Source: Planctomycetota bacterium
Lineage (GTDB): Bacteria; Planctomycetota; Uabimicrobiia; Uabimicrobiales; JABWCH01
Direction of reading: 5' to 3'
Assembly: GCA_022710345.1 (NCBI GenBank)
Contig: JAKLHB010000001.1
Coordinates: forward strand, 1-49,064
Length of the DNA stretch: 49,064 nucleotides
Both the position numbers and the translations under genes were made by a program. Below are positions 33,195 through 36,223 of this stretch, piece by piece. The notes below the pieces were generated by a model that was not told the DNA's origin, did not search any database, and was given only the letters and a program-made list of their open reading frames with translations. Within the stretch, counting starts at the first letter, position 1. Every line of letters begins with the position of its first letter.

Positions 33195-33454
33195 TTAATA
33201 AAAAAGACTACGGAGACATGGCAGAAAAAGCATGGCAATCATGAAGGCATGCATTCCAGGAACCCGTAGCATAGCCCTTCGGTTTGAGGCCACGAATAGC
33301 GGCCTCAAACGCGAAGTGATTTCGATTTGTAGGCAATACCAATATCCTGTTAAAAATATTGCAAAATTTGTTTTTTTTCCTCAAAAAACAAGATATAATT
33401 TGACTTGATATAGTTTGATTCATCATTTTTTCTTTCAAAATCAGGAGATTTCCA

Positions 33455-36223
33455 ATGTCGAAAAAAAGTCTCACTCAAGCGAATCCTAAAAAATCAAAAA
33501 CAACGCATAAAACAACCAAGCCCAAATCCACGTCCCAAAAATCTAGCAAAACAATAACATCATCGTCGGCCAAAAAGCCAGCTTTGCCGAAAACTCAAAA
33601 AACGAAAAAGACAGCTTTATCGCCAACCAAAAAGACAGCTTTGTCAAAAAGTAAAAAGACAGCTTTGCCAAAAAGCAAAAAGACAGCTTTGCCGGAAACT
33701 CAAAAAACGAAAAAGCCAGCTTTATCGCCAACCAAAAAGACAGCTTTGTCAAAAAGCAAAAAGTCAGCTTTATCGCCAAAGCCAGCTTTATCACCAAAAG
33801 CAGTGACTCACAAACCGGCTTTATCCCAAACAATGATTCCAAAGTCTCCAGCACTCATATCTAAAGCGGCCAAACCAAAAACGCCATCATCAAAATCCGC
33901 ACCCAGCAAATCACAAGAAGCTGTCTTCCCATCTCAACCACAATCCATTGAAGTAGAACCCGGAGAGCCTGGGGAGATTTTTGAGTCCAGCGAGCCAGAG
34001 ATTCCGATCAATCCAGAAACAGTCATGTACTACCAGGACCTGATGCCAGGGGAACCAAAAAAATCGGCTTTTTGGGGGACGCAGTTAACGAATTATGTGC
34101 AAAAACCGTATGTCCAAGAATACATTCAAAAGCATAGCAAAGCCAAGCTATACATCGGCCAAAAGCCTGTCATTCCTAGGGCCAAAAAAATCAGTGGTTG
34201 GAATGATGATGTGCCATACATTTTATCAAGAGAATCCGATGCAGCATTACCATCTTGTACATTTGTTGGCCGGCAAGAGATGTTTGAAGCCTTGCAAGCC
34301 CAACGAACCATTGCTCGACATACAGCCTTGATTGGAATGAGAAAAATGGGAAAAACTGCGTTTGTCAAACGATACTATGACTATTTGTTCACCACGTCCG
34401 AGTCAGTGATTCCATTTTTCTATTCCTTCATGAACCTGGATGAAAGAAGAGGTAGTAAAAAGTCCGTGGTCCAGGTGGCAGAAGAAATGATGATTGTTTT
34501 CTTAAGCCAGGCTTTGGGATTTTTGACGCAAAATAAAACGCTAGCAAACAATAATGAGTTTGATAATCTTTTATTTGCATTAGAAAATTTGCCATCTGAA
34601 GCAAAAGAAATGTATTATGAAATATTCCACCAAATGATCCAATCATGGTATGCTGATGGAACTCTGCGTCCATTATATCAAATGATGCAACGCTCTATAG
34701 ATATTACGCTTAGAATAAAATTTTTCTTCGACCTCTCCCCCGTGATCATGCTAGATGAATACCAGGAAGTTGCTCGGTCGTTTGTGGATGAAAATGGAGA
34801 GAGCTACGATTGTGTGCCAGTGTTGAACAAATACCACTGCAATGATCGAATCTTTCTTTTACTGAGTGGCTCAGGATTAACGACCCGGATGGAAGATGCT
34901 CTGCCGCCGGCATTCGAGTATCGGATCGAACGTGTCCAGTTCGGTTCATTGGAAAAAGAAGATAGCCAGGAATTGGTGAGAAGAACGGTTCAGGCATTGA
35001 ACCTGAATGTGTTTGAAGGGATTGAAGAGAAATTGTACAAGCTCGTGGATGGGAATCCATACTTTATCCAGAGTGTTCTCACCCACAATTCAGCGTATCA
35101 AAAGATGTATGGCGAAAAAAAGGATTTTACAAAATTGGCAGGGCTATTAAAAGCCTATCGCTTTGAATGCACGGATGAAGCAGGAAAAATCTATGATTTC
35201 TGGCATTGGTACCTGATCCGAAATTGGCAAGCATACCCAGCATTCTTGAAATTTGGACAAGCAGTGTATCAAATTTTAAGATTTTTAGTGAATGCCAAGC
35301 AGGCAGTGCCGCTTCAAACGATTCAGGACATGATGAAGCAAGAGCTTCAGGGACAAAAAGATGCATTGACCATAGAACGATTGGTGGCCCGAATATTGAT
35401 CCATTTAGGAAGGATTGATTTGATTAAATGGAAATCCGCCTCAAATATGATCTTTATCGCCAAAGAGCCAACCATTGTGGCGAGCATTCAGGCAATTAAA
35501 TATGATTTGTTCTATCCCGAAGATCCACAAGAACTCCATCGGGAAGAAAATATGGAGCAGCATATCCTGGATATCTATAAGACACGAGAGAGTCTGGAAG
35601 AACTGGCAACGCAGGTAAAAAAGATGCAGGAAAATGTGGACACCATACACAAAGACCTAAAGAAAGTGAAGCAGGCAGGAACTGGAAAAGTAAGCCATGA
35701 ACAAGGCAAGGACGCAGAAGCCGAAGTCCGAGGCATGATTCAGAGGAGGGAAGGGATATTTGCCCCATACCCGATCCTGGGCAATGTGCGAAATGAAAAA
35801 ATCCAGGACCCAAGCAGCAAGCTGGAATACGAACTGGATTGCGTGGCAGATATAGACCCAGTTCAATTGCCATTGAAAGATATTCCAATGGCCAAGATTT
35901 CCTACGTTGGAATTGCCCAAGCTAGGGGATCAGCAGGATCGGCTCATCAAAAGTCCATCACCATTGCATCCTTGGATCAGGAACCAACGTCCAAAGCCAT
36001 GCTTGTGGTCGAGGTCAAGGATCAAAAGAAAAAGACGGATATATCCCAGGCCTTGCATTTTATCCAAAGCCTGGAAGCCTTGCAACGAATGCACAGCCTA
36101 ACCCAGGTTTATGCCGTGTTCTATTCTTGCTCTGGATTCTACAAAAATGCCATGCAGGAACTGATCAAGCGCCATGTTGTTGTGGCTGAATGCGACAGGT
36201 CAAAGGAGCACGCTTGCACATAG
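33455..36223 (+). CDS. Lys-rich repeat tail + AAA-type ATPase (archaeal-ATPase-like) + C-terminal DUF234-like nuclease-fold region
   Basis: aggag RBS. Residues 1 to about 170 are KKTALSKSKKTALPKS-type repeats. Then Walker A ALIGMRKMGKTAF, Walker B VIMLDEYQ, LLLSGSG, GNPYFI. C-terminus: YELDCVADID...LVVEVKDQKKK. Confidence 0.75.
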   Translation: MSKKSLTQANPKKSKTTHKTTKPKSTSQKSSKTITSSSAKKPALPKTQKTKKTALSPTKKTALSKSKKTALPKSKKTALPETQKTKKPALSPTKKTALSKSKKSALSPKPALSPKAVTHKPALSQTMIPKSPALISKAAKPKTPSSKSAPSKSQEAVFPSQPQSIEVEPGEPGEIFESSEPEIPINPETVMYYQDLMPGEPKKSAFWGTQLTNYVQKPYVQEYIQKHSKAKLYIGQKPVIPRAKKISGWNDDVPYILSRESDAALPSCTFVGRQEMFEALQAQRTIARHTALIGMRKMGKTAFVKRYYDYLFTTSESVIPFFYSFMNLDERRGSKKSVVQVAEEMMIVFLSQALGFLTQNKTLANNNEFDNLLFALENLPSEAKEMYYEIFHQMIQSWYADGTLRPLYQMMQRSIDITLRIKFFFDLSPVIMLDEYQEVARSFVDENGESYDCVPVLNKYHCNDRIFLLLSGSGLTTRMEDALPPAFEYRIERVQFGSLEKEDSQELVRRTVQALNLNVFEGIEEKLYKLVDGNPYFIQSVLTHNSAYQKMYGEKKDFTKLAGLLKAYRFECTDEAGKIYDFWHWYLIRNWQAYPAFLKFGQAVYQILRFLVNAKQAVPLQTIQDMMKQELQGQKDALTIERLVARILIHLGRIDLIKWKSASNMIFIAKEPTIVASIQAIKYDLFYPEDPQELHREENMEQHILDIYKTRESLEELATQVKKMQENVDTIHKDLKKVKQAGTGKVSHEQGKDAEAEVRGMIQRREGIFAPYPILGNVRNEKIQDPSSKLEYELDCVADIDPVQLPLKDIPMAKISYVGIAQARGSAGSAHQKSITIASLDQEPTSKAMLVVEVKDQKKKTDISQALHFIQSLEALQRMHSLTQVYAVFYSCSGFYKNAMQELIKRHVVVAECDRSKEHACT
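33572..33830. repeat. In-frame tandem and nested DNA repeats encoding the Lys/Thr/Ala/Pro-rich tail
   Basis: aaaaagacagctttg(c/t)c(a/g)aaaag units, plus a larger duplication of about 103 bp (about 33578-33650 vs 33681-33753). Boundaries are approximate. Confidence 0.8.

What the first reader, a model, noticed from the sequence alone, without database searches (positions are those of the whole stretch)
33455..36223. Histone-H1-like lysine-rich repeat tail fused to an ATPase with a C-terminal nuclease-fold module
- The first 170 residues or so are KKTALSKSKKTALPKS / PALSPK repeats. They are very basic and low in complexity, reminiscent of eukaryotic H1 tails and bacterial histone-like Lys-rich proteins.
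- They are followed by an archaeal-ATPase-type P-loop domain (GMRKMGKT, MLDEYQ, GNPYFI), a coiled-coil segment, and a DUF234-like region with D...E-x-K-like residues (ELDCVADID ... VVEVKD).
- The gene stands alone between unrelated convergent and divergent neighbours in the accessory part of the window.
- A DNA-coating tail on an ATPase plus putative nuclease fits a single-gene DNA-sensing or defence protein, but its function is unknown.
Basis: partly seen in the sequence, partly recalled or inferred. Interest (0 to 1): 0.6.

Follow-up and report, generated by a model that had tools for sequence, protein, structure and literature searches.

The report
Lysine-tailed ATPase-nuclease from a huge paralog family
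This gene encodes an ATP-driven DNA-cutting enzyme with a long, histone-H1-like positively charged tail, and it is one of at least 24 diverged but intact copies in a single uncultured planctomycete genome, an unusually large expansion whose biological role is still unknown.

Summary
The 922-aa ORF at 33455-36223(+) is real and has the motifs described. Its parts, in order:
- a 184-aa Lys/Thr/Ala/Ser/Pro tail (net +32) built from DNA tandem repeats;
- a conserved 88-aa extension with no known relatives;
- an AAA+ ATPase of the PF01637 (ATPase_2) type, closest to Orc1/Cdc6, with a winged helix;
- a single helix of about 70 residues;
- a C-terminal PD-(D/E)xK nuclease of the Mrr_cat type, not DUF234, with E755/D795/E853/K855 intact and a disordered insert in its beta-hairpin.

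The 5-Mb draft genome (an uncultured Planctomycetota MAG) holds at least 24 distinct copies, probably 30 or more, and some lie in tandem. The copies form one clade, each module is under purifying selection (dN/dS 0.11-0.23), and each recoverable N-terminus has its own version of the basic tail.

There are no transposon ends, no conserved partner gene, no PADLOC hit and no defence-island context.

The molecular reading is well supported: a DNA-tethered, ATP-gated nuclease. The biological role is inferred: a conflict/defence repertoire, DNA maintenance, or a selfish family. I class it as a new variant of a known but uncharacterised architecture. Interest is moderate.

The parts
33282..33310 (+). 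Perfect 10-bp-stem hairpin (GTTTGAGGCC-9 nt-GGCCTCAAAC) in the upstream leader shared with type-A paralogs
   Evidence: Read directly. The same element occurs upstream of the C443 copy with compensatory changes. Its function is unknown.
33348..33454 (+). Conserved promoter and 5' leader block of type-A paralogs. Holds a TATAAT box at 33394-33399 and a GGAG ribosome-binding site at 33444-33447.
   Evidence: About 107 nt upstream of the ATG is 78-80% identical to the leaders of C443, C579 and C423. Homology stops beyond about 100-215 nt. Sequence read. The simple sigma-70 scan did not call it, because the TTGCAA-TATAAT spacing is 29 nt.
33455..36223 (+). Whole ORF, 922 aa
   Evidence: GC content is 0.428 against 0.416 for the genome.
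33455..34006 (+). Polycationic low-complexity tail, residues 1-184, net charge +32, no aromatic residues. Presumed disordered.
   Evidence: Composition. Present in every recoverable paralog N-terminus, with copy-specific repeats.
33571..33798 (+). DNA tandem repeats that encode the KKTALSxS units: 24-nt unit, 48-nt and 105-nt higher-order units, plus an 18-nt array
   Evidence: Tandem Repeats Finder.
34007..34270 (+). Conserved N-terminal extension, residues 185-272 (INPE..MYYQDLxPGEP ... W.DDVPYILSR). No known relatives.
   Evidence: Mean column identity is 83% among 12 aligned paralogs and dN/dS is 0.14. No Pfam or PDB match. pLDDT is low. Absent from tail-less relatives.
34271..35116 (+). 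AAA+ P-loop ATPase of the ATPase_2 (PF01637) type, residues about 273-554
   Evidence: AlphaFold pLDDT is mostly above 90. Foldseek top hit is 2qen with TM 0.70 to the target, followed by archaeal Orc/Cdc6. The family profile hits 2fna and 2qen. Relatives pass the PF01637 cut-off.
34334..34357 (+). Walker A motif GMRKMGKT, residues 294-301
   Evidence: The pattern LIG[ML]RKMGKT was found in all 23 fragments that matched it. It lies in invariant columns.
34742..34765 (+). Walker B motif VIMLDEYQ, residues 430-437
   Evidence: The matching pattern (V/I)(I/V)(M/I)LDEYQ was found in 18 fragments. D434 is at least 90% conserved across 86 relatives.
35135..35506 (+). Helical region plus winged helix-turn-helix, residues about 561-684
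   Evidence: The model shows H-H-H-beta-beta. The profile matches IclR/MarR/ArsR-type winged helices at profile positions 380-437.
35534..35746 (+). Single helix of about 70 residues, a putative dimerising coiled coil, residues 694-764. Its C-terminal end carries E755.
   Evidence: Weak leucine-zipper hits. Its length varies among paralogs through heptad-like duplications.
35774..36190 (+). Mrr_cat-type PD-(D/E)xK nuclease module, residues 774-912. Catalytic residues are D795 (35837-35839), E853 (36011-36013) and K855 (36017-36019).
   Evidence: D, E and K are the only invariant columns across 25 diverse relatives. Relatives pass the PF04471 cut-off. The window module scores 17.9 bits against a cut-off of 21 once the insert is removed. 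The model gives a beta-beta-[loop]-beta-alpha-beta-alpha-beta topology with block-mean pLDDT 92-97.
35855..35995 (+). Low-complexity insert in the beta-hairpin between the D and ExK motifs, residues about 801-847. Part of it is predicted disordered.
   Evidence: pLDDT is below 50 for model residues 634-657, which are protein residues 818-841. The motif-to-motif distance ranges from 38 to 148 residues among paralogs. There is almost no insert in the G008 relative.

Best explanation
What it is: a cytoplasmic, multi-domain, ATP-dependent DNA nuclease. It is one member of a lineage-specific family of at least 24 (probably 30 or more) paralogs in an uncultured Planctomycetota bacterium.

Proposed mechanism:
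1. The disordered polycationic tail (net +19 to +46 in every copy) holds the protein on DNA through non-specific electrostatic contacts, as H1 C-terminal tails or the PAKKA tail of mycobacterial Ku do.
2. The Orc1/Cdc6-like AAA+ module and its winged helix read a DNA feature and act as an ATP switch.
3. The long helix pairs two chains.
4. Pairing brings two Mrr-type PD-(D/E)xK domains together to cut DNA.

Shown: the domain identities, the intact catalytic and nucleotide-binding residues, the repeat nature and universality of the tail, the expansion, purifying selection, and the absence of transposon ends.

Inferred: DNA binding by the tail, dimerisation, ATP gating, cleavage, and the biological role.

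My preferred role is a diversified repertoire of self/non-self DNA surveillance nucleases, that is, a conflict or defence function. The architecture (NTPase switch plus REase effector), the effector swapping in relatives and the paralog diversification fit that class best. The role is the weakest step.
For: Architecture:
- AlphaFold model with mean pLDDT 82.4.
- Foldseek top hit 2qen (a PF01637 ATPase), then archaeal Orc/Cdc6.
- The family profile hits 2fna and 2qen at E about 1e-7 to 1e-8 and winged helices.
- PF01637 and PF04471 score above their curated cut-offs in relatives.

Active sites:
- Walker A and Walker B were identical or near-identical in every fragment where the pattern was found.
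- E...D...ExK are the only invariant or near-invariant columns of the C-terminal module across 25 relatives.

Tail:
- It is a DNA tandem repeat.
- All 17 tails measured are strongly cationic and lack aromatic residues. The two database proteins that seemed to lack the tail have mis-called starts.
- About 30 of the 41 Lys-rich windows in the genome belong to this family.

Expansion:
- 68 matches in the genome, and 55 of 651 contigs carry a piece.
- 24 distinct N-terminal cores, all below 98% nucleotide identity to each other.
- The copies form one clade with 100/100 support.
- dN/dS is 0.11-0.23 in every module.

Conflict-like features:
- Some relatives carry HATPase_c_2 in place of the nuclease.
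- Tail, coiled coil and nuclease loop all vary in length.
- Mosaic 90-95% identity tracts suggest recombination among copies.
- NTPase plus Mrr-like REase conflict systems are described in Planctomycetes (PMC7159879).
- A basic Lys-rich repeat tail modulates DNA binding in M. smegmatis Ku (PMC3553676, abstract).
Against: - There is no match to any PADLOC defence model, even at E <= 1.
- Neighbours of the window gene, of its paralogs and of distant relatives are mostly housekeeping or unrelated genes, with no conserved partner such as a methylase or an immunity gene.
- 24 to 30 or more copies is far above anything reported for defence NTPases. PMC7159879 reports a record of six paralogous systems.
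- The family is confined to one genus-level lineage and is not spread horizontally.
- The window protein itself does not reach Pfam cut-offs for PF01637 or PF04471. Both assignments are transitive.
- No biochemical or expression data could be obtained.
- All copies come from one 79.5%-complete MAG, plus contigs of one JGI metagenome (3300010429) for the three homologs whose source was looked up.
Confidence: 0.5

Rival explanations
1. A housekeeping DNA-maintenance or nucleoid-organisation family. The tailed ATPase-nucleases are chromatin-associated enzymes, for example in recombination, repair, decatenation-like processing or nucleoid remodelling. The organism needs them in many specialised or dosage-increasing copies.
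For: Contexts are housekeeping or unrelated, not defence islands. GC content is native. All modules are under strong purifying selection. The tail is compositionally like nucleoid-associated Lys-rich proteins. The AAA+ plus winged-helix module is Orc1/Cdc6-like.
Against: A housekeeping function is rarely restricted to one genus. Five of the nine genomes in the same order gave no match at the threshold used. Core functions do not normally need 24 or more diverged copies with hypervariable regions. Relatives swap the effector domain.
Confidence: 0.2
2. A selfish gene family. The gene, with its own promoter, spreads within the genome using its own nuclease through homing-like or recombination-driven copying. 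The copies persist because they are hard to lose.
For: The family is multi-copy and dispersed, with tandem arrays. A conserved promoter and leader travel with each copy. Mosaic high-identity tracts and orphan 3' fragments indicate frequent recombination. Many contigs break inside the copies.
Against: There are no terminal inverted repeats and no conserved 3' flank, and upstream homology ends within about 215 nt. No two copies are near-identical: 24 N-terminal cores are all below 98% identical, with a median of about 74% at the DNA level. dN/dS is 0.11-0.23 in every module, including the tail-adjacent extension, so selection acts on protein function. PD-(D/E)xK plus AAA+ in one chain is not a known transposase design (my own knowledge).
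Confidence: 0.1
3. A family of STAND-like or Orc-like regulators, not nucleases. The AAA+ module and winged helix act as ATP-dependent DNA-binding regulators, and the C-terminal PD-(D/E)xK fold is used only for binding or sensing.
For: AAA+/STAND plus wHTH is a common regulator design (my own knowledge). Some relatives replace the nuclease with an HATPase_c_2 kinase-like module. The large disordered insert sits inside the nuclease hairpin.
Against: The catalytic E, D, E and K are the only invariant or near-invariant positions of the module across 25 relatives and all paralogs. That pattern is hard to explain without catalysis.
Confidence: 0.1

Closest known systems
PF01637 (ATPase_2, 'archaeal ATPase') proteins with a C-terminal PD-(D/E)xK domain: the DUF234 (PF03008) and DUF1703 architectures, and Mrr fused to NACHT (PMC1913061, PMC3424549)
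   Same: The order is the same: AAA+ module, helical/winged-helix linker, then a restriction-endonuclease-fold domain. Walker A and B are intact. Relatives score above the PF01637 cut-off. The solved members 2qen and 2fna are the best structural and profile matches. These families are also uncharacterised experimentally, as far as the two papers state.
   Different: The nuclease here is Mrr_cat-type, not DUF234 or DUF1703. Additions are a 90-300-aa polycationic repeat tail, an 88-aa novel extension, a helix of about 70 residues and a 38-148-aa insert in the nuclease hairpin. The expansion to at least 24 copies in one genome is also new.
Mrr, a type IV methyl-dependent restriction endonuclease (Mrr_N winged helix plus Mrr_cat, PF04471)
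   Same: A winged helix is followed by an Mrr_cat-type catalytic domain with D...ExK.
   Different: Mrr has no AAA+ ATPase, no coiled coil and no basic tail. The window protein's own score (17.9 bits) is below the PF04471 cut-off of 21. Dependence on DNA modification is untested.
Archaeal Orc1/Cdc6 initiators (1w5t, 2qby)
   Same: The fold is AAA+ followed by a C-terminal winged helix. They are the second-best group of structural matches.
   Different: Sequence identity is only 11-13%. Orc1/Cdc6 has no nuclease. There are 24 or more copies, and they are not at an origin. No role in replication is implied.
Lys-rich repeat tails of nucleoid proteins: eukaryotic H1 C-terminal domain, Chlamydia Hc2 (PMC2848022), the mycobacterial Ku PAKKA tail (PMC3553676)
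   Same: The tails are Lys/Ala/Pro/Ser/Thr-rich, lack aromatic residues, are built from short tandem repeats, and vary in repeat number and sequence.
   Different: The likeness is in composition only. There is no H1 globular domain and no Hc1/Hc2 family match. Lys content (about 23%) is lower and Thr/Ser content higher than my recollection of H1. The tail is N-terminal and fused to an enzyme.
NTPase-centred conflict systems of multicellular or complex bacteria, and Avs/STAND defence proteins (PMC7159879; Avs3, 8dgc)
   Same: An NTPase switch is fused to an REase (Mrr-like) effector. The domains are modular, paralogs diversify, and such systems occur in Planctomycetes.
   Different: There are no TPR, WD40 or other sensor repeats, no vWA/MoxR partners, no PADLOC hit and no defence-island context. 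Copy number is several times the reported maximum of six.

Membership tests
Pfam ATPase_2 (PF01637) AAA+ ATPases | Direct HMM match of the window protein at the curated cut-off (33.2 bits) | tested here: not met
   One search gave only AAA_22, AAA_14 and AAA_35 at 15-17 bits, with no PF01637 hit at E <= 1. The paralog P0003 has a precomputed weak PF01637 hit.
Pfam ATPase_2 (PF01637) AAA+ ATPases | Homology through relatives and profiles | tested here: met
   Relatives L013, P0027, P0030, P0036, P0044 and P0054 score 35-45 bits, at or above the cut-off. The family profile hits the solved PF01637 proteins 2fna (4e-8) and 2qen (1.4e-7).
Pfam ATPase_2 (PF01637) AAA+ ATPases | Walker A GxxxxGK[ST] and Walker B hhhhDE present | tested here: met
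   GMRKMGKT and VIMLDEYQ are conserved across the paralogs. G115, K116 and D250 are at least 90% conserved in 86 relatives.
Pfam ATPase_2 (PF01637) AAA+ ATPases | AAA+ alpha/beta domain plus helical lid plus winged-helix fold | tested here: met
   Model pLDDT is 82. Foldseek top hit is 2qen with E 4e-10 and TM 0.70 to the target.
Pfam Mrr_cat (PF04471) PD-(D/E)xK nucleases | HMM match at the curated cut-off (21 bits) | tested here: not met
   The native sequence gave no hit. With the insert excised it scored 17.9 bits, E 0.0035. Relatives L014, P0008, P0025, P0027 and P0028 score 22.8-31.8 bits, above the cut-off.
Pfam Mrr_cat (PF04471) PD-(D/E)xK nucleases | Catalytic E ... D ... (D/E)xK residues | tested here: met
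   D795, E853 and K855 are invariant and E755 is at least 90% conserved across 25 relatives. All four are invariant in the paralogs.
Pfam Mrr_cat (PF04471) PD-(D/E)xK nucleases | alpha-beta-beta-beta-alpha-beta core topology | tested here: met
   The model has a helix ending at residue 764, strands at 774-784, 791-800 and 848-855, a helix at 863-880 and a strand at 884-891, with block-mean pLDDT 92-97. No separate structural search of this domain was possible.
Pfam Mrr_cat (PF04471) PD-(D/E)xK nucleases | Metal-dependent DNA cleavage | not testable with these tools
   This needs biochemistry.
DUF234 (PF03008) | HMM match to PF03008 | tested here: not met
   No hit in the window protein, its isolated C-terminal module or the 15 relatives scanned.
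Linker histone H1 / bacterial H1-like proteins (Hc1, Hc2) | Homologous domain (H1 globular winged helix, or the Hc1/HC2 families) | tested here: not met
   No such Pfam hit at E <= 1.
Linker histone H1 / bacterial H1-like proteins (Hc1, Hc2) | Lys-rich, repeat-built basic low-complexity region | tested here: met
   This is a compositional likeness only.
Linker histone H1 / bacterial H1-like proteins (Hc1, Hc2) | DNA binding and compaction | not testable with these tools
   This needs EMSA or microscopy.
Known anti-phage defence systems (PADLOC-DB v2) | Match to a defence-protein model | tested here: not met
   0 families at E <= 1.
Known anti-phage defence systems (PADLOC-DB v2) | Recurrent location in defence islands | tested here: not met
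   Neighbours are mostly housekeeping or unrelated genes in three metagenome loci, 19 paralog contigs and three distant relatives. The window copy lies about 7 kb from an Hma operon and about 7 kb from an MksFEB-like triad, separated from them by unrelated genes.
Insertion sequences / transposons | Conserved element ends (terminal repeats) on both sides | tested here: not met
   Only 100-215 nt of upstream leader is shared, and there is no shared 3' flank.
Insertion sequences / transposons | Near-identical copies from recent transposition | tested here: not met
   24 N-terminal cores are all below 98% nucleotide identity, and the median identity of long HSPs is 74%.
STAND / Avs-type pattern-recognition NTPases | C-terminal sensor repeat array (TPR, WD40, LRR) | tested here: not met
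   There are no repeat-domain hits, and the model shows none. Avs3 is only rank 49 in Foldseek, through its NTPase.

The most novel reading that the evidence does not exclude
The planctomycete maintains a large, recombining repertoire of 24-30 or more chromatin-tethered, ATP-gated nucleases. Each has its own H1-like tail, winged helix, coiled-coil length and nuclease-loop insert. Together they act as an innate-immune-like array that patrols the nucleoid, analogous in logic to NLR repertoires. Alternatively, the basic disordered tails drive DNA-dependent condensates of Orc/Cdc6-like ATPases, as reported for metazoan initiators (this comparison rests on my own recollection). Either would be a new organisational principle for bacterial DNA surveillance.
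Probability: 0.15. Interest if true: 0.8.

Novelty: new variant of a known kind. Interest (0 to 1): 0.55.

Why it matters
The AAA+ (PF01637) plus PD-(D/E)xK architecture is widespread but has no experimentally established function. This lineage offers an extreme natural experiment:
- dozens of intact, selected paralogs;
- a modular polycationic tail whose sequence turns over while its charge is kept;
- an ancestral tail-less copy (C183) in the same genome for comparison.

If the tail tethers the enzyme to DNA, the family is a clear bacterial case of an H1-like disordered region recruited to target an enzyme. If the repertoire is a defence or conflict array, it extends the known scale of paralog diversification of bacterial NTPase-effector proteins several-fold.

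There is also a practical point. The family fragments the assembly, and gene callers mis-place its start codons, which hides the tails in databases.

Tried and rejected
- First AlphaFold run with only 6 close sequences failed (pLDDT 36.6). A repeat with 86 sequences succeeded.
- The pattern scan of 185,579 species genomes found no relative. Relatives were found only through the genome search in the same family and order.
- PDB sequence searches with the single protein, the C-terminal profile and the N-extension profile gave nothing significant.
- NCBIfam and PADLOC gave nothing.
- The BFVD viral fold search gave only generic AAA+ matches.
- Ser/Thr kinase association: a Pkinase plus FGE-sulfatase gene lies directly downstream of copies on C68/C447, C487 and C416. 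The genome has 165 kinase-domain ORFs, and enrichment at contig level is not significant (16 observed against 12.9 expected, p = 0.22). I rejected it as a conserved partner.
- H1/CDK-like S/T-P-x-K motifs are only weakly over-represented in the tails (46 observed against 30 expected). They are not a defining feature.
- Mobile-element reading: rejected for lack of element ends and of near-identical copies.
- The metagenome-contig scan was not used. The exhaustive HMMER search already showed that the tailed subfamily collapses to one 50%-identity cluster plus fragments.


Full report
**1. Observation**

The ORF 33455-36223 (+) exists exactly as given: ATG start, TAG stop, 922 aa.

Residues 1-184 are a Lys/Ser/Thr/Pro/Ala low-complexity segment with 41 K, 0 R and 9 D+E, for a net charge of +32. 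At the DNA level this segment is a genuine tandem array. A 24-nt unit repeats about 7 times, and 48-nt and 105-nt higher-order units are present, the latter at 94% identity. This is not a chance compositional fluctuation.

- GMRKMGKT at residues 294-301
- MLDEYQ at residues 432-437
- GNPYF at residues 533-537
- ELDCVADID at residues 793-801
- VVEVKD at residues 851-856

Two details need correcting. The upstream neighbour, an M6-like peptidase, is co-directional and not divergent. And the gene is locally solitary but is far from unique in the genome (section 3).

**2. Domain identities**

Direct HMM searches on the window protein are weak. Pfam gives only sub-threshold AAA_22, AAA_14 and AAA_35 hits, NCBIfam gives nothing useful, and PADLOC gives nothing.

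Identification came through relatives:
- An exhaustive HMMER search of 1.84 billion cluster representatives with a tail-trimmed family profile found only 106 proteins at E <= 1e-3, and 12 at E <= 1e-30.
- The more distant hits are proteins of about 600 aa. Many reach Pfam's curated cut-offs for ATPase_2 (PF01637) and for Mrr_cat (PF04471).
- A profile of 86 family members hits the two solved PF01637 ATPases, 2fna and 2qen, at E about 1e-7 to 1e-8. It also hits winged-helix regulators over profile positions 380-437.

An AlphaFold model built on that alignment is confident, with mean pLDDT 82.4 and pTM 0.67. In protein numbering it shows:
- a P-loop alpha/beta domain with helical lid, residues about 273-554;
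- a helical region plus winged helix, residues about 561-684;
- one uninterrupted helix, residues 694-764;
- a beta-beta-[disordered loop]-beta-alpha-beta-alpha-beta module, residues 774-912.

Foldseek's best PDB match is 2qen (TM 0.70 normalised to the target), followed by archaeal Orc/Cdc6 proteins. The ATPase dominates the whole-chain search, so I tested the C-terminal module separately:
- Across 25 diverse relatives the only invariant columns are D795, E853 and K855. G751 and E755 are at least 90% conserved. This is the canonical E...D...ExK constellation.
- With its low-complexity insert excised, the window module scores 17.9 bits on Mrr_cat, against a cut-off of 21.
- DUF234 (PF03008) never scored in any protein tested.

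The overall design, a PF01637-like AAA+ module, a helical linker and an REase fold, is described in the literature for DUF1703, DUF234 and Mrr-NACHT proteins, without experimental function (PMC1913061, PMC3424549).

Residues 185-272 are strongly conserved among paralogs. Mean column identity is 83% and dN/dS is 0.14. This region has no Pfam or PDB relative and folds with low confidence.

**3. The expansion**

Searching the window's own genome gave 68 matches. The genome is 5.0 Mb in 651 contigs and is 79.5% complete.

A six-frame census shows:
- about 7 full-length copies inside contigs, plus about 35 fragments where contigs end inside a copy;
- 55 of 651 contigs carrying a piece;
- 32 N-terminal core segments and 33 C-terminal nuclease segments.

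Counting conservatively, 24 N-terminal cores are all below 98% identical to one another at the DNA level, and 23 C-terminal segments are distinct. Only C447 and C68 are an overlapping duplicate.

Several copies are arranged head to tail (C465, C528, upstream of the C332 gene, C385). Short orphan 3' nuclease fragments follow full genes on C83, C120 and C305.

The 'homologs' returned from 5.8 billion protein clusters are this organism's own paralogs or come from a closely related population. P0005 is C332 (100%), P0004 is essentially C579 (99%), and P0002 and P0003 are extra members not in this assembly.

The organism is an uncultured, deep-branching Planctomycetota bacterium. Its RNase Y is 78% identical to that of an 'uncultured Planctomycetota' MAG, and nearly all other matches come from Planctomycetota.

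Taxonomic spread within the order, which has 9 genomes in the collection:
- Only this genus has the tailed high-copy type.
- G003 has at least 7 tail-less copies of about 650 aa.
- G008 has one tail-less copy.
- G001 has a version with a Lys/Ser/Thr-rich tail that lacks the nuclease.
- The window's own genome also keeps one ancestral-type tail-less copy, C183.

A maximum-likelihood tree places all 15 alignable copies of this genome in one clade with 100/100 support. The clade sits on a long stem and has short internal branches. This is an in-situ burst, not repeated acquisition.

Every module is under purifying selection, with median dN/dS of 0.11-0.23. Walker A, Walker B and GNPYF are conserved wherever the region is present. 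Gene GC content (0.428) matches the genome (0.416).

**4. What varies among copies**

Three regions change in length and sequence.

(i) The tail:
- It is 91-294 aa long in the copies with a complete N-terminus, with copy-specific repeat units such as KAKAAKTT, KTKAPTAKVA, AKKAVPKT and KKTALSKS.
- It always carries a net charge of +19 to +46 and essentially no aromatic residues.
- Two database proteins that seemed to lack the Lys-rich part have mis-called starts. The open frames continue upstream to MSKKSL... and include full tails.
- Of the 41 ORFs in the genome with such a Lys-rich window, about 30 belong to this family.

(ii) The coiled-coil helix, which carries heptad-like duplications in one subgroup.

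(iii) The loop between the D and ExK motifs of the nuclease, which spans 38-148 residues. It is almost absent in the G008 relative.

At the DNA level the copies are about 74% identical overall, but they contain mosaic tracts of 90-95% identity. This suggests recombination or gene conversion between paralogs.

**5. Is it a mobile element?**

Shared sequence outside the ORFs is limited to 100-215 nt of promoter and leader, in two types. The window copy is type A, with a TATAAT box at 33394-33399, a GGAG site at 33444-33447 and an upstream hairpin at 33282-33310. There is no shared 3' flank and there are no terminal repeats. No copies are near-identical. I reject an IS or transposon.

**6. Context**

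No partner gene recurs beside the copies. The only clustered neighbour is a Ser/Thr kinase plus FGE-sulfatase fusion, which lies directly downstream of four copies. The genome encodes 165 kinase-domain ORFs, and enrichment at contig level is not significant (p = 0.22).

Neighbours across 19 paralog contigs, three metagenome loci and three distant relatives include DnaK/DnaJ, YebC, ATP synthase, LigA, a glycosidase, a PKS cluster, MFS transporters and DUF1501/DUF1800 genes. These are not defence islands.

The window copy lies about 7 kb from an Hma operon and about 7 kb from an MksFEB-like triad. Both come from earlier notes and my Pfam scan. Unrelated secreted-protein, AsmA-like, miaA and rny genes lie in between.

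**7. Mechanism**

Supported by the data: an intact AAA+ nucleotide site, a winged helix, a long helix suited to pairing, an intact PD-(D/E)xK site, and a conserved polycationic tail.

Inferred steps:
- The tail tethers the enzyme to DNA non-specifically. Precedents are the PAKKA tail of M. smegmatis Ku, which modulates DNA binding (PMC3553676), and the Lys-rich pentamer repeats of Chlamydia Hc2, which vary in number (PMC2848022).
- The Orc/Cdc6-like AAA+ and winged-helix module recognises a DNA feature and switches with ATP.
- The helix dimerises the protein so that two nuclease domains can make a double-strand cut.

For the biological role I favour a diversified conflict or defence repertoire, for three reasons. 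The protein has the NTPase-switch plus REase-effector logic described for Planctomycetes and other complex bacteria (PMC7159879). Relatives swap the effector for HATPase_c_2. And the paralogs diversify in putative recognition and spacing elements.

Against this stand the absence of any defence-model hit, the neutral contexts, the narrow phyletic range, and a copy number several times the reported maximum of six. The rivals are a housekeeping nucleoid enzyme family, a selfish gene family, and non-catalytic regulators. They are scored in their own section.

**8. Novelty and verdict**

The core architecture is a known but uncharacterised kind. Three things are new:
- the fusion to an H1-like tandem-repeat tail and a novel 88-aa extension;
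- the disordered insert inside the nuclease hairpin;
- the expansion to at least 24 (probably 30 or more) selected paralogs in one genome.

I rate it a new variant of a known kind, with interest 0.55.

Caveats:
- All evidence comes from one fragmented MAG, plus contigs of one JGI metagenome for the homologs whose source was checked.
- Both Pfam assignments are transitive for the window protein.
- No biochemistry exists.

Noticed in passing
G000 contigs C83:8010-8150, C120:8121-8318, C305:849-1028 (genome coordinates, not in the window): Short orphan fragments matching only the last 55-75 residues of the nuclease module lie downstream of full-length family genes. They are probably relics of unequal recombination in tandem arrays. 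Superficially they resemble the displaced C-terminal cassettes of polymorphic toxin loci.
   Followed up: partly
G000 contigs C68:20088-23082, C447, C487, C416, C125: Ser/Thr protein kinase plus FGE-sulfatase fusion genes lie directly downstream (C68/C447, C487, C416) or upstream (C125) of family copies. The genome has 165 kinase-domain ORFs, and the association is not significant at contig level (p = 0.22).
   Followed up: yes
window 33282-33310: A perfect 10-bp-stem hairpin lies upstream of the type-A promoter block and is conserved with compensatory changes upstream of the C443 copy. Type-B copies carry a different conserved hairpin (TGGCCAGAGTGAGTAGGTCAACCGAAAACCCTGGCCA) about 150-200 nt upstream. 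Both elements occur mostly next to family genes.
   Followed up: partly
G000 contigs C70, C551, C442, C638, C559, C122 (tails of paralogs): Some tails contain one or two extra degenerate copies of the first core motif (GINPEAMSYQDLTPGEP). This suggests that the segment is a short linear motif that can be duplicated.
   Followed up: no
G000 contigs C375:2918-3521, C527:872-1520, C192 (first 381 nt of the minus strand): A second kind of Lys/Thr-rich ORF (MSS[IM]QDKKTKAKLQAKKTTT...TKATTGKTKAATG repeats) is cut by contig ends. It could be a third tail type of the same family or an independent small basic protein.
   Followed up: no
L001:9800-10010 and L002:1-575 (JGI metagenome 3300010429 contigs): The public gene calls for P0002 and P0003 start too far downstream. 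The open frames extend upstream to MSKKSL... and include full Lys-rich tails. The minus-strand 'genes' called there are shadow ORFs of the Lys codons. The window has one too, at 33543-33854(-).
   Followed up: yes
Distant relatives P0036, P0058, P0082, P0084, P0101, P0102, P0106: In these PF01637-type relatives the C-terminal nuclease is replaced by a different module. P0036 scores as HATPase_c_2 (anti-sigma-factor-kinase-like) in Pfam, and the other six look similar by eye. This is an effector swap on the same ATPase chassis.
   Followed up: partly
G000 contig C612:13308-14226: A probable secreted protein (N-terminal hydrophobic signal-like segment) has a C-terminal Lys-rich repeat (KSKSKAKKLTTTKSKAKKL). 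It is unrelated to the family.
   Followed up: no
L101:3276-7280 (JGI 3300079575): Two tandem 578-aa ATPase_2 paralogs (one is P0027, ATPase_2 plus Mrr_cat) lie next to a large PKS gene. Tandem duplication of this architecture also occurs outside the window's lineage.
   Followed up: no
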